A stretch of 25,266 nt of DNA from the IMG/VR virus record IMGVR_UViG_3300021590_000007; one strand, written 5' to 3'. A program made the position numbers and the translations under genes. Source of the stretch: a virus. The notes beneath the pieces were generated by a model. It saw only the letters and a list, made by a program, of their open reading frames with translations. It searched no databases and had not been told where the DNA came from. Below, piece by piece: positions 16,246 through 19,462 of the stretch; position 1 is the first letter of the stretch, and each line of letters begins with the position of its first letter.

Positions 16246-16836
16246 TCATTGTTTTAATGATTCTCGTAGCAATCGTAGCCATTTATTACTTTCGTATACT
16301 CGATTCACTTCTTCAGCATATTCTTTTTCGTGATAATCTATATCACTTAAGGCTTTTTTGATTTGTTGTTCTTTATATTCTTCACCTGAGAGGCGCTGAG
16401 GCATTTCTGTAATAAAACAATCATATTCAATACTTTCTTCTAATTGCTGGATCATAAACTGTTTAAGACCCTCGTGATCGGGAGTTGGTGGTTTCCATTT
16501 TTGAACTTTAGAAAGCATGTCTTCGTATCGCTTACGAATTAGTTTATTCTTTTTGATGAATTCTTCTCGCTTTTTTAGAGCTTCTTGATAAGCTCGTTCT
16601 GCTTCCTGCTCTGCCTTTTCTTTATTCCATTCTTTAATCTCTTTCAATCTCTTTTTTGCTTTTTCCAATTCTTTGAGATGATAATCTGATGGTTCAAATC
16701 GTTCTGGAATAGGAGCATCTATTGATTTGTCTCGCATACCGATCAATGCTCCAAATGCTCTGGCACACTTCAGTGCAAATTCTTCAAACGTTAAATCTTT
16801 ACCATCATATAAATCTAATGTATAACCTGTAGGCAT
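16246..16836 (-). CDS. Conserved viral hypothetical protein (MPTGYT N-terminus)
   Basis: MPTGYT...FEEFALKCARAFGALI.MRD...WKPPTPDHEGLKQFMIQQL, a phage family I recognise; function unknown. Confidence 0.8.
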   Translation of the reverse strand: MPTGYTLDLYDGKDLTFEEFALKCARAFGALIGMRDKSIDAPIPERFEPSDYHLKELEKAKKRLKEIKEWNKEKAEQEAERAYQEALKKREEFIKKNKLIRKRYEDMLSKVQKWKPPTPDHEGLKQFMIQQLEESIEYDCFITEMPQRLSGEEYKEQQIKKALSDIDYHEKEYAEEVNRVYESNKWLRLLRESLKQ

Positions 16837-17853: not shown

Positions 17854-18237
17854 TCAATACCTCCTCATTAATATTTCTTTTGTTTCTCGCATCATTTCAT
17901 TAACTGCAATAGCAGACATAGTCAATTGCTCTTTAAGCCATAAAAGATAATCTAATACTCTTTTACTCAATGGACTACTACAGCTCTCCCAATATATATT
18001 TTCTTTCTCTACGCTTCGTATCATATCATCAAATATCTTTTCCTCTCTAACTAAAAAGTTTCTGAAATCAATTATTTTACTTGTTATATCATAGTTTTTA
18101 CCCTCATTATAGAATACATAAAAAACATCTGAAGTGTGTGGTACGACTATAACTTGTTTGAGTAATATTTCTCCTCGTTCTTCTCTTTCCAAGAATTTGC
18201 TTAACGATTCGATCCTTTCAAATCTTTTTACTTTCAT
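17854..18237 (-). CDS. Hypothetical protein
   Basis: 127 aa, GGAGGT RBS. Confidence 0.8.
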   Translation of the reverse strand: MKVKRFERIESLSKFLEREERGEILLKQVIVVPHTSDVFYVFYNEGKNYDITSKIIDFRNFLVREEKIFDDMIRSVEKENIYWESCSSPLSKRVLDYLLWLKEQLTMSAIAVNEMMRETKEILMRRY

Positions 18238-18262
18238 ATTTTTATACCTCCCTCTATAAGGA

Positions 18263-18406
18263 TGGATGGGGCAGGAGTCGAACCTGCATTCCCGGACAGA
18301 ATTTGGTGATCGGACTTCCCACCTTCCTGCTAGAAGGCTTCCATCCTATCTCTTTAATAAAAAGGATACGAACAATGCCCGGATCCTACCGTTGGACGAC
18401 CCATCC
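18263..18406 (-). tRNA. tRNA or tRNA-like gene with a 72-nt insert in the anticodon loop; isotype unresolved (nominal UGU)
   Basis: Acceptor GGATGGG/CCCATCC plus discriminator A; U8; D-arm GTCC-AACGGTA-GGAT; anticodon stem CGGGC/GTCCG; T-arm GCAGG-TTCGACT-CCTGC; no encoded CCA. A TTTATAT box lies about 40 nt upstream. Confidence 0.8.
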
Positions 18407-18461
18407 CAGATACTTTTCTTAACGCCTTTATGGACATACAAAAATATAAATAAGATCATAT

Positions 18462-18965
18462 CTAGATATAATTTAGAACGTACTTTTCTATTAACTCTCG
18501 ATGTTCATTCTTATCCTGTGTTGCAAATTTTCTGTGTATATCTTTATCAATGAAAACTACGTGTACATCATCAATATGATGTGCTTCCGTATTGGCTCTC
18601 TTTTCATTCAGTGGTTGAAAGCCGTATCCTCTCTGCCATGCACTATACTTTGAAAAAATATAAGGGGGTTTAATTACCCCCATTTGTATAAGACTAATTA
18701 GTTCACTAAAGCTTCCCCGCTTCCTCTGTCTTCTCCTTCTTTTCTTCAGGGCGGGGCTACCCAACCCAGGGCAAGTTCTTCTATACCTACTCTTCTGAGC
18801 AGGAAGTTCAGATGGGGAGGCTTCCACCATACTTCCCTTGCCCTCGGTGGACTTTTGATTTCCACCTTCCTCCAATAGAGTTCCTATTGTCACACTTTTT
18901 TTATTACGATTTATTTGATTAGTGTTACTTAGTCCTTTACTGGTCTTTCTGTTATCCATTGCCAT
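18462..18965 (-). CDS. HNH-like (beta-beta-alpha-Me) endonuclease domain protein with low-complexity N-terminus
   Basis: C-terminal RGYGFQPLN...EAHHIDDVHVVFIDKDIHRKF...NEH. GAGGAGGT RBS 8 nt before the Met codon at 18959. Confidence 0.55.
   Translation of the reverse strand: MAMDNRKTSKGLSNTNQINRNKKSVTIGTLLEEGGNQKSTEGKGSMVEASPSELPAQKSRYRRTCPGLGSPALKKRRRRQRKRGSFSELISLIQMGVIKPPYIFSKYSAWQRGYGFQPLNEKRANTEAHHIDDVHVVFIDKDIHRKFATQDKNEHRELIEKYVLNYI
18653..18885 (-). ncRNA. Candidate GC-rich structured RNA embedded in the HNH-like ORF
   Basis: About 53% GC over 18711-18880 (hand count) versus roughly 30% in flanking genes. Helices: CAATAG/CTATTG, GGTGGA/TCCACC, AGGGCAAG/CTTGCCCT, GGAAGT/ACTTCC, ATGG/CCAT, GGGTT/AGCCC, CCCCGC/GCGGGG, then GGGGG/CCCCC and a U-tract. 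G-U pairs favour the minus strand. Confidence 0.55.
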
Positions 18966-19462
18966 CTACCTCCTCTCTCAACTTCCTCCCACATTTTAGC
19001 TTGCTCAATTAGGGATAGCCTTAAATATCCATTTCTCTGTGCTGCCTTACGCTCTCTATTTCTTATCATTTCGGCTTTACGTTTTATTTCACTCGCTTTC
19101 ATTTCCGAATTTATAGCCAAATTATATAAGTGAATCATCAATTTTCGGTATGGAGACTTTGGATTCATTTGTTTTTTAAGCCATTTACGAATTTTTTGCA
19201 ACTCTTTTTGTTTTGCATCTCTTTCTCTCAATTCATTGAATCGCTGCGATTGTTTATTATAATATCTTGCTCTTTTTTCATTTTGAATCAGATCTATTGG
19301 TGGCTGATGACCTATTTCATTCCATAACGCATAATAAGCTGTTATTTTTTGTCTTTGCTGATAGTCTTCTTCATTCCTTATCGGATCTTCCCATACTACA
19401 TCAATATTTCGAAGATTATCAGGCACACCATTTAACATATATTCGATTTCTTTTCTAATCAC
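18929..19462 (-). CDS. Basic helical hypothetical protein
   Basis: 177 aa, GTG start with GGAGGTG RBS. Confidence 0.75.
   Translation of the reverse strand: MIRKEIEYMLNGVPDNLRNIDVVWEDPIRNEEDYQQRQKITAYYALWNEIGHQPPIDLIQNEKRARYYNKQSQRFNELRERDAKQKELQKIRKWLKKQMNPKSPYRKLMIHLYNLAINSEMKASEIKRKAEMIRNRERKAAQRNGYLRLSLIEQAKMWEEVERGGRWQWITERPVKD

What the first reader, a model, noticed from the sequence alone, without database searches (positions are those of the whole stretch)
18319..18871. Candidate three-part system: structured RNA, HNH nuclease and tRNA mimic sharing sequence modules
Seen: the tRNA insert and the upstream GC-rich RNA share AGGAAGGTGG (18319-18328 and 18862-18871) and TGGAAGCCT (18335-18343 and 18818-18826) in permuted order. 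In both, AGGAA-GGUG is followed by AAGUCC and closed by CACC into a hairpin. Two such matches between a 72-nt and a 230-nt segment seem unlikely by chance, though both are purine-rich. Inference: a common protein-binding module or common origin, for example an RNA-associated endonuclease element that uses a tRNA scaffold for processing, or that mobilises or protects the tRNA locus. Free-standing homing endonucleases beside phage tRNA genes are known; an RNA partner of this kind is not known to me.
Basis: inference. Interest (0 to 1): 0.7.

Follow-up and report, generated by a model that had tools for sequence, protein, structure and literature searches.

The report
Viral tRNA mimic beside RNA-in-gene nuclease
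A deep-sea-vent virus carries a tRNA-shaped RNA that cannot decode, next to a small nuclease-like gene whose first half also folds as a conserved RNA. The two RNAs share a short duplicated module, and sister viruses insert a Ro60 RNA-surveillance gene between them.

Summary
Both shared words sit exactly where stated and occur nowhere else in the window. Sharing a 10-mer plus a 9-mer arose in 21 of 5000 shuffles. In relative L003 the match grows to 21 of 24 bases (0 of 2000 shuffles).

All three parts are real.
1. The "GC-rich RNA" is a six-helix structure with 37 pairs, 11 of them with compensatory changes. It lies inside the 5' half of a translated 167-aa ORF.
2. The ORF's C-terminal domain has a beta-beta-alpha topology and an invariant N...HH...H pattern. 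Some remote homologues carry NUMOD3 motifs. HNH membership stays inconclusive.
3. The "tRNA" has a covarying tRNA body, but the content of its anticodon arm ranges from 4 to 79 nt among relatives and has no constant anticodon. It is a tRNA mimic, not a spliced tRNA.

The ORF is followed by a tRNA-shaped RNA in every relative with enough sequence. About half of them carry a cassette (a second tRNA-like RNA, more structured RNA, Ro60/TROVE) between the ORF and the mimic.

The shared module occurs in one clade only. In the mimic its two words pair with each other as a covarying hairpin. I read the locus as a viral Ro60/Y-RNA-type RNA module. I found no evidence for an RNA-guided nuclease. The RNA-in-gene arrangement was noted earlier in this scan on other DNA (e1-5804362).

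The parts
18462..18965 (-). ORF167: a 167-aa protein with a disordered, Arg/Lys-rich N-terminal half and an HNH-like C-terminal domain. Its start overlaps the end of the upstream ORF177.
   Evidence: ORF list. 42 homologues at 65-90% identity. Frame 0 has 0 stops against 6-13 in the other two frames over nt 31-310 in all 11 sequences. Codon periodicity in the C-terminal part.
18749..18873 (-). Structured RNA embedded in codons about 32-72 of ORF167. Helices: H1 18866-18861/18851-18846; H2 18844-18837/18775-18768; H3 18836-18831/18807-18802; H4 18828-18824/18815-18811; H5 18801-18797/18792-18788; H6 18767-18760/18755-18749. A possible GGAGG (18873-18869) to CCUCC (H4 loop) pseudoknot could not be tested because both sides are invariant.
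   Evidence: RNAalifold on 10 sequences. Pair counts: 98.9% of cells paired, 11 pairs with changes on both sides, 0 of 500 shuffles, slid controls at most 54% paired. Synonymous divergence 0.29 here against 0.71 in the C-terminal part, with equal non-synonymous divergence. Model R1 finds one copy per locus.
18652..18681 (-). Hairpin GGGGG-UAAUUAAA-CCCCC followed by a U-run, inside ORF167 (codons 95-105). An in-frame ATG or TTG lies directly before it in 9 of 11 sequences.
   Evidence: Terminator-like site in the scan. Stem bases invariant at synonymous sites in all 10 sequences; only loop bases vary.
18462..18668 (-). Coding region of the HNH-like C-terminal domain (residues about 100-167). 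Motif: RGYGFxPLNE...EAHHIDxxHVVFIDKxxHRKF.
   Evidence: AF2 models give strand-strand-helix at residues 126-149, with pLDDT above 90 using the deep alignment. 187 remote homologues with invariant N120, H129, H130, H144. Some homologues carry NUMOD3. Weak structural matches to HNH domains, Z 2.6-3.1.
18263..18406 (-). tRNA-shaped RNA (tRNA mimic). It has a 7-bp acceptor stem, U8, a D arm with A14 and G18G19, a 5-bp anticodon stem, a 5-nt variable loop, a T arm with UUCGACU, and discriminator A. No CCA is encoded.
   Evidence: ARAGORN finds it only with introns allowed. Fold. Body conserved with covariation at 3:70, 4:69, 7:66, 29:41 and 31:39 across 9 lineages.
18298..18375 (-). Non-decoding expansion of the anticodon arm (78 nt between the stem strands; ARAGORN's 'intron' is 18301-18370). 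It consists of a 5' hairpin plus the module arm at 18345-18308: closing helix GAUGGA/UCC(G)AUC, a GGGAAG internal loop, helix GCCUUCU/GGAAGGU and loop AGCA.
   Evidence: Content between the stem strands is 4 to 79 nt in relatives, with no constant anticodon, U33 or R37. The B:A hairpin covaries: GCCUUCU/GGAAGGU, GCCUCUU/GGAGAGGU, ACCUCC/GGAGGU.
18929..19462 (-). ORF177: conserved upstream partner whose stop overlaps the ORF167 start. No known domain.
   Evidence: Present in the same position in all relatives. No Pfam or PHROG match.

Best explanation
This is a conserved RNA-centred locus of a group of hydrothermal-vent viruses, not an RNA-guided nuclease.

Shown:
(a) ORF167 is translated, and its first half doubles as a six-helix structured RNA kept by compensatory substitutions.
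(b) The neighbouring gene is a tRNA mimic. Its tRNA body is conserved, but its anticodon arm carries a fast-changing, non-decoding extension.
(c) In roughly half of the relatives a cassette sits between the two. It holds a second tRNA-like RNA, about 300 nt of further structured RNA, and Ro60 (TROVE + vWA).
(d) In one clade the mimic's extension contains a diverged copy of the 5' segment of the ORF167 RNA (UUGGAGGAAGGUGGAAAUC...) plus a CCUCC-type partner word. The two words pair with each other as a covarying hairpin.

Inferred:
- The shared module arose by local duplication or recombination from the adjacent RNA. It serves as a stable protein-binding hairpin displayed on a tRNA scaffold.
- The tRNA mimics act like bacterial and phage Y RNAs (YrlA type). 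They would be processed as tRNAs and tether or gate Ro60, either the virus's own copy or, in viruses such as this one that lack it, another RNA-binding partner.
- The most likely such partner is ORF167, through its arginine-rich stretch. ORF167 would then also bind its own mRNA structure and so regulate itself.
For: - Structured RNA: 37 pairs, 98.9% of cells paired, 11 covarying pairs, 0 of 500 shuffles, slid controls at most 54%. Synonymous divergence is 2.5-fold lower than in the C-terminal half at equal non-synonymous divergence.
- Translation: 0 stops in frame against 6-13 in the other frames. The indels seen in the alignment are all 3 or 6 nt long. A ribosome-binding site and a start overlapping ORF177 are present.
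- Mimic: canonical body with covariation. The content between the anticodon-stem strands is 78, 79, 73-74, 82, 62, 58, 39, 17 and 4 nt in different lineages. The 'anticodon' position differs even between near-identical inserts (AAU in L002, ACU in L003; AUUGUUC in the window, AUCGUUC in L055). L011 has no insert yet only a GCAAG pentaloop with G33.
- Ro60 link: TROVE + vWA_Ro60 score above Pfam thresholds in L003 and L006, and are on record for L013, L057 and L058. They lie on the same strand, flanked by tRNA-like RNAs. Rfam's tRNA model hits the upstream tRNA-like RNA at 45.9 bits.
- Precedent: bacterial and phage Y RNAs lie within 4 kb of Ro60 on the same strand and mimic tRNA (PMC4201824). 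Ro60 has been reported in archaeal (Nidhogg) viruses without a partner RNA (bioRxiv 10.1101/2021.07.29.454249).
- Module homology. Hairpin covariation.
Against: - This window has no Ro60. No ORF is long enough apart from NrdD, so any Ro60 role needs a host protein or does not apply here.
- Rfam's YrlA and Y RNA models do not match.
- The mimic is not circularly permuted as YrlA is.
- A Ro60-contact-like word (GUCCGA) occurs only in the window and L001.
- L013 has Ro60 and the upstream tRNA-like RNA but lacks the downstream mimic.
- The shared module is absent from four mimic lineages, so it is dispensable.
- There is no expression or binding evidence of any kind.
- The words are like ribosome-binding sites and could partly reflect the limited vocabulary of GC-rich stems in a 32% GC genome.
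Confidence: 0.5

Rival explanations
1. The three parts are neighbours with independent functions. The shared words are a relic of a local duplication, or reflect the GGAGG/CCUCC vocabulary of stable stems, with no common partner. The embedded RNA is a cis-element of the ORF167 mRNA (stability, translation control or attenuation through the hairpin and U-run). The tRNA mimic acts alone, for example as a decoy for tRNA-targeting host enzymes.
For: The module is limited to one clade. Model R1 finds no second copy. The window's own alignment is only marginal, 28 of 1000 shuffles. A CCUCC-N4-GGAGGUG hairpin also occurs in the insert of the other tRNA-like RNA in L003, L006 and L013, so such words recur. 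The hairpin plus U-run at 18681-18652 looks like a terminator.
Against: L003 shows 21 of 24 identical positions (0 of 2000 shuffles), which is hard to get from vocabulary alone. The module architecture is kept by covariation through four insert variants. The synteny is strict.
Confidence: 0.3
2. The tRNA-shaped gene is a true tRNA (ARAGORN calls it Asn-GUU) with a large intron that the host's machinery removes. This would be the archaeal splicing endonuclease if the host is an archaeon.
For: The body is fully canonical. The virus has archaeal-type genes: AEP primase, ERCC4 + HhH nuclease. In L003, L013 and L056-58 the second tRNA-like RNA has a perfect Asn loop, UUGUUAA.
Against: No bulge-helix-bulge can be drawn at the junctions (fold, and by inspection). 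The predicted mature loop would have U37. The 'anticodon' differs among close relatives, and L011 lacks an insert yet has a non-decoding pentaloop. Rfam's tRNA model does not reach threshold on the window. The insert itself is under structural selection.
Confidence: 0.08
3. One reading: ORF167 is an RNA-associated HNH nuclease that uses the embedded RNA, the tRNA mimic's variable arm, or both, as a cofactor or guide, or that mobilises the locus.
For: The nuclease-like domain, an arginine-rich stretch, a structured RNA and a hypervariable RNA arm are strictly linked. Some remote homologues of the domain carry NUMOD3, a homing-endonuclease motif. The Ro60 cassette is present or absent exactly at the 3' end of ORF167.
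Against: The variable arm is folded into covarying hairpins rather than offering a free guide. The nuclease fold is only weakly indicated (Z about 3). ORF167 is found in all relatives, not sporadically. No target complementarity was sought or found. Rfam's HEARO/omega-RNA model does not match.
Confidence: 0.08

Closest known systems
Bacterial and phage Y RNAs of the YrlA type with Ro60/Rsr (Chen et al. 2014, PMC4201824; Rfam RF02553)
   Same: Non-coding RNAs with tRNA-like D arm, T arm and acceptor stem, but no decoding function. In the relatives here they lie within 2 kb of a TROVE + vWA Ro60 gene on the same strand, and there is more than one RNA per locus.
   Different: The RNA here is not permuted: its ends are at the acceptor stem, and the anticodon arm is a closed, variable extension. 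YrlA has its ends in the Ro60-binding stem and a closed acceptor stem. The YrlA model gives no match. The GNCGAAN0-1G motif is not conserved. The mimic persists in viruses without Ro60, including this window.
Archaeal pre-tRNAs with large bulge-helix-bulge introns
   Same: Canonical tRNA body interrupted in the anticodon arm by tens of nucleotides that vary between relatives.
   Different: There is no bulge-helix-bulge motif and no constant mature anticodon loop. One lineage has no insert and is still non-decoding. The insert has its own covarying structure.
HNH / beta-beta-alpha-Me nucleases, including free-standing phage homing endonucleases with NUMOD motifs
   Same: Small domain with a strand-strand-helix core, an invariant His-His and a helix His. 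Some remote homologues carry NUMOD3 or Cys4 ribbons. It is encoded beside tRNA-type genes in a virus.
   Different: No Pfam HNH match. Structural Z is only 2.6-3.1. There are no zinc-binding cysteines. The gene is universal in its virus group rather than sporadic. The N-terminal half is a translated RNA structure.
HEARO / IscB omega-RNA with its HNH-containing nuclease (Rfam RF02033)
   Same: A structured RNA physically joined to a gene with an HNH-type domain.
   Different: There is no RuvC domain, no Rfam match and no guide segment. The RNA lies inside the coding sequence rather than upstream of it.

Membership tests
Decoding tRNA | Cloverleaf body: 7-bp acceptor stem, U8, A14, G18G19, T loop UUCRANY | tested here: met
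   ARAGORN -i drawing and fold. Body table with covariation.
Decoding tRNA | 7-nt anticodon loop with U33, purine 37 and a conserved anticodon | tested here: not met
   4 to 79 nt lie between the stem strands. The predicted loop has U37. The 'anticodon' differs among close relatives. L011 has a GCAAG pentaloop with G33. Rfam's tRNA model stays below gathering score on the window.
Archaeal intron-containing tRNA | Bulge-helix-bulge motif (two 3-nt bulges 4 bp apart) at the exon-intron junctions | tested here: not met
   Neither the minimum-energy fold nor manual pairing of the junction sequences gives such a motif, in the window or in L006. No dedicated BHB-finding program was run.
Group I intron in a tRNA gene | Match to the group I intron covariance model; size of 200 nt or more | tested here: not met
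   No Rfam match even at E up to 10. The insert is 70-78 nt.
Y RNA / YrlA | Encoded within about 4 kb of a Ro60 (TROVE) gene on the same strand | tested here: inconclusive
   Met in relatives L003, L006-9, L057. Not met in this window, where no ORF is long enough for Ro60, nor in L001, L002, L010, L011, L014, L015 and L055.
Y RNA / YrlA | Match to Rfam YrlA or Y_RNA; permuted tRNA-like domain with the ends in the Ro60-binding stem | tested here: not met
   No such match in the window or in L006 4900-7500. The ends are at the acceptor stem.
Y RNA / YrlA | Ro60-contact motif GGUCCGA or GNCGAAN0-1G (PMC4201824) | tested here: inconclusive
   GUCCGA is present at 18315-18310 and in L001. L002, L003 and L057 have AAGCGAU. 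L055, L006 and L010 have neither.
Y RNA / YrlA | Physical binding to Ro60 | not testable with these tools
   Needs immunoprecipitation or gel shift.
HNH (beta-beta-alpha-Me) nuclease | Strand-strand-helix core with a catalytic His at the end of strand 1 and a metal-binding His or Asn in the helix | tested here: inconclusive
   AF2 places E126-130, E135-140 and H141-149 with pLDDT above 90. N120, H129, H130 and H144 are invariant in 82 sequences. Best structural matches: SciA Z 2.6-3.1, McrA Z 3.1, Cap5 Z 2.9, IscB Z 2.9.
HNH (beta-beta-alpha-Me) nuclease | Match to a Pfam, PHROG or PDB HNH profile | tested here: not met
   No HNH family for ORF167 or 23 homologues at E up to 10. No PDB sequence match. 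The protein atlas gave HNH clusters only at 0.84-0.85.
HEARO / IscB omega-RNA | Rfam RF02033 match, with RuvC + HNH protein downstream | tested here: not met
   No Rfam match. The protein has 167 aa and no RuvC domain.

The most novel reading that the evidence does not exclude
ORF167 is the protein of a new kind of RNA-scaffolded nuclease particle. Its arginine-rich stretch binds the GGAGG:CCUCC-type hairpin, which is present both in its own mRNA-embedded RNA and on the interchangeable anticodon arm of a tRNA-shaped carrier. The tRNA mimic (with or without Ro60) would then deliver or regulate an HNH-like nuclease in a virus-host conflict over tRNA or RNA quality control.
Probability: 0.1. Interest if true: 0.85.

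Novelty: new variant of a known kind. Interest (0 to 1): 0.6.

Why it matters
Ro60 genes have been listed in phages and in archaeal (Nidhogg) viruses, but for archaeal-type vent viruses no partner RNA has been described. Here tRNA-shaped RNAs flank the gene. This extends the rule that Y RNAs mimic tRNA to a new, non-permuted design and gives concrete RNAs to test.

The locus also offers two unusual cases. One is a coding sequence whose first 100 codons are shaped at least as much by RNA structure as by the protein. The other is a tRNA scaffold whose anticodon arm is swapped freely among close relatives.

If the shared hairpin is a common protein-binding site, the locus would show how a virus builds modular RNA-protein particles from tRNA parts.

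Tried and rejected
- Default ARAGORN and Rfam at gathering thresholds found nothing in the window.
- Rfam at E up to 10 on 18150-19050 gave only noise plus a weak tRNA-Sec-like alternative reading at 18346-18264. I rejected that reading because it lacks U8 and A14 and its acceptor stem has a mismatch.
- No T-box, group I intron, HEARO, YrlA, RNase P or SRP match.
- No whole genome is held for this window.
- blastn against phages found nothing.
- The genome-contig scan for ORF167 found nothing. The T-arm and acceptor pattern hit only unrelated bacterial tRNAs, and a viral contigs pattern hit mostly unrelated viral tRNAs. The host was therefore not identified.
- No RNA holder was listed among the sequencing runs. 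All holders were DNA runs, mostly labelled hydrothermal vent metagenome.
- Foldseek against PDB gave no match below E = 1 for either model. PDB sequence searches gave nothing.
- Model R1 found no partial copy of the embedded RNA in tRNA inserts.
- A K-turn reading of the H3/H4 internal loop, and an antiterminator pairing for the hairpin, were considered by eye and dropped. The required bases are absent or not conserved.
- The idea that low synonymous divergence reflects recent recombination was rejected because of the compensatory changes.
- An overlapping ORF in another frame was rejected.

Full report
**Layout.** All genes around the finding lie on the minus strand. In the direction of transcription the order is:
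- ORF177 (19462-18929);
- ORF167 (18965-18462), whose start overlaps the ORF177 stop and has a GGAGG ribosome-binding site;
- a 55-nt spacer;
- a tRNA-shaped gene (18406-18263);
- ORF127.

The window has 32% GC, but 18700-18900 reaches 50% GC.

**The observation.** The two shared words are at the stated coordinates and are unique in the window.
- Shuffling both segments while keeping dinucleotide content gave a shared 10-mer in 174 of 5000 trials, and a 10-mer plus a 9-mer in 21 of 5000.
- The gapped alignment in the window itself is marginal (28 of 1000).
- The same comparison in relatives is stronger. In L003, 21 of 24 positions agree between the insert (UUGGUAGGAGAGGUGGAAAUCCAA) and the start of the ORF167 RNA (UUGGAGGAAGGUGGAAAUCAAA), reached by 0 of 2000 shuffles. 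L055 gave 8 of 2000 and L002 7 of 2000.
- I conclude that the likeness is real and reflects common origin.

**The GC-rich RNA.** Relatives were obtained from IMG/VR and through 42 protein homologues and their contigs.
- In ten sequences, RNAalifold predicts six helices.
- On the trimmed alignment A5, the 37 pairs are formed in 98.9% of cells. Eleven pairs carry changes on both sides. No shuffle out of 500 reaches these values. Sliding the partners by 1-3 columns drops pairing to 37-54% and covarying pairs to 0-2.
- The RNA therefore exists as a selected structure (window 18866-18749).
- It lies inside ORF167, and the ORF is translated. Frame 0 has no stop in any of 11 sequences, while the other frames have 6-13. 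The indels seen are 3 or 6 nt long. The non-synonymous to synonymous ratio is 0.55.
- Synonymous divergence in codons 26-92 is 0.29, against 0.71 in codons 105-160, at equal non-synonymous divergence (0.16 and 0.14). That is the signature of a second constraint at the RNA level.
- AlphaFold leaves residues 1-64 unstructured.
- A G5/C5 hairpin followed by a U-run (18681-18652) is also held at synonymous sites. An in-frame ATG or TTG stands directly before it in 9 of 11 sequences, and GAG in L002 and L012.

**The 'HNH' domain.**
- Pfam, PHROGs and PDB sequence searches give nothing.
- A profile search finds 187 remote homologues of residues about 100-160, with the motif RRGLGFxPLNE...AHHIDxxHVxFIPKELH and invariant N120, H129, H130, H144.
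- Several homologues carry NUMOD3 motifs or Cys4 ribbons in front of the domain.
- With the deep alignment the domain folds with pLDDT above 90 as strand-strand-helix.
- Structural matches are weak. In the second model SciA is tied for top at Z 2.6.
- HNH-like is therefore a reasonable label, but membership is not established.

**The tRNA-shaped gene.**
- The body is canonical.
- It is kept in nine lineages with compensatory changes in the acceptor and anticodon stems.
- What lies between the two strands of the anticodon stem is not kept: 78 nt (window), 79 (L001), 73-74 (L002, L003), 82 (L055), 62 and 58 (L010, L015), 39 (L014), 17 (L006-8) and 4 (L011).
- No reading gives a constant anticodon, U33 or purine 37.
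  - Near-identical inserts differ at the 'anticodon': AAU in L002 and ACU in L003; AUUGUUC in the window and AUCGUUC in L055.
  - L011, which has no insert, has a 6-bp stem with a GCAAG loop.
- No bulge-helix-bulge can be drawn.
- This is a tRNA mimic with an exchangeable arm, not an intron-containing tRNA.
- Within the clade of the window, the arm ends in a module kept by covariation:
  - a closing helix, GAUGGA/UCC(G)AUC in the window, GAUGGA/UCCAUC in L055, UGGA/UCCA in L002;
  - a GGAA(A)-type internal loop;
  - a helix in which word B pairs with word A: GCCUUCU/GGAAGGU, GCCUCUU/GGAGAGGU, ACCUCC/GGAGGU.
- In the ORF167 RNA the same words are the 5' GGAGG...H1 segment and the H4 loop GCCUCC. 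These could form a pseudoknot, but both are invariant, so this cannot be tested.

**Context in relatives.**
- In L003/L057, L006-9, L013, L056 and L058, a cassette follows ORF167. It holds a second tRNA-like RNA (Rfam tRNA 45.9 bits, with a 61-nt replacement of the anticodon region), about 300 nt of further hairpins, and a 497-509-aa protein with TROVE and vWA_Ro60 domains.
- The mimic follows the cassette in L003, L057 and L006-8, but not in L013.
- The first base of the second tRNA-like RNA lies within the last codons of ORF167 (...MPP stop). This explains the two alternative C-terminal tails of the protein.
- The window, L001, L002/L012, L010, L011, L014, L015 and L055 lack the cassette.
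- Bacterial and phage Y RNAs lie near Ro60 on the same strand and mimic tRNA (PMC4201824). Ro60 genes occur in Halogranum, Myxococcus, Thermus and actinophage genomes and were noted in Nidhogg viruses of Asgard archaea.
- The RNAs here match no Rfam Y RNA model and have a different topology.

**Habitat and host.**
- The DNA is held mostly by runs labelled hydrothermal vent metagenome.
- AEP primase, an ERCC4 + HhH nuclease, a RecA/RadA-like ATPase and NrdD are encoded nearby.
- The host domain is unresolved. Some proteins resemble those of bacterial phages, and the mimic's body resembles viral tRNA-Gln-type genes.

**Reading.**
- The parts and their linkage are established.
- The functional reading is an inference: a Ro60/Y-RNA-like module in which tRNA mimics display protein-binding arms, with ORF167 as a likely RNA-binding partner that also recognises its own mRNA.
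- It rests on synteny, the arginine-rich stretch and the shared hairpin. There are no expression or binding data.
- The rivals remain open at the probabilities given: independent neighbours, a spliced tRNA, an RNA-guided nuclease.

**Earlier notes of this scan.** Other notes had flagged the same two RNAs in this window. A follow-up on another vent-virus genome had described an RNA folded inside an HNH-like gene (e1-5804362). My independent tests agree with that description.

Noticed in passing
L003:6237-6360, L013:4491-4614, L056:2410-2534, L057:1687-1810, L058:936-1060, L006:5498-5620: A second tRNA-like RNA lies upstream of Ro60 in the relatives. It has acceptor GCCCCCG/CGGGGGC, a normal D arm and a normal T arm. 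In L003, L013 and L056-58 it has a perfect Asn-type arm (UUCGC-UUGUUAA-GCGAG), plus an extra hairpin of about 48 nt between the D arm and that arm. In L006-9 the loop is 6 nt (AUUGGG). Its apical hairpin CCUCC-GAAC-GGAGG covaries (CUUCU/AGAGG, CCUCU/AGAGG). Its 5' end overlaps the ORF167 stop codon.
   Followed up: partly
L056:2535-2720, L057:1811-2000, L058:1061-1250: About 190-300 nt of hairpin-rich non-coding sequence lie between the second tRNA-like RNA and the Ro60 start. This stretch shares the 9-mer CCAAGCGAU with the L002/L003-type insert of the downstream mimic. That is a further shared word within the locus, vaguely like the Ro60-contact motif.
   Followed up: no
window 18681-18683 and codon 94 of ORF167: An in-frame ATG (TTG in L010, L011, L014, L015; GAG in L002 and L012) lies directly at the foot of the invariant G5/C5 hairpin. 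It could be an internal start for an HNH-only product of about 74 aa, or it could be coincidence.
   Followed up: partly
window 17854-18237 compared with L001 and L002: The gene after the mimic (ORF127) is replaced by shorter or longer unrelated sequence in L001 and L002. The mimic therefore sits at a mosaic junction.
   Followed up: no
window 16246-16836: A 196-aa protein matches PHROG 8905 and has 32-48% identical homologues in Pseudomonas, Bacillus, Caulobacter, Sinorhizobium and Streptomyces phages. This sits oddly with the archaeal-type replication genes nearby and leaves the host domain open.
   Followed up: no
window 18263-18406 compared with L016 and L025: Apart from its anticodon arm, the mimic's body resembles tRNA-Gln(UUG)-type genes of unrelated viral contigs (ATCGTCTAATGGTAGGAC ... 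AATGCAGGTTCGATTCCTGC). This hints at the kind of tRNA it derives from.
   Followed up: no
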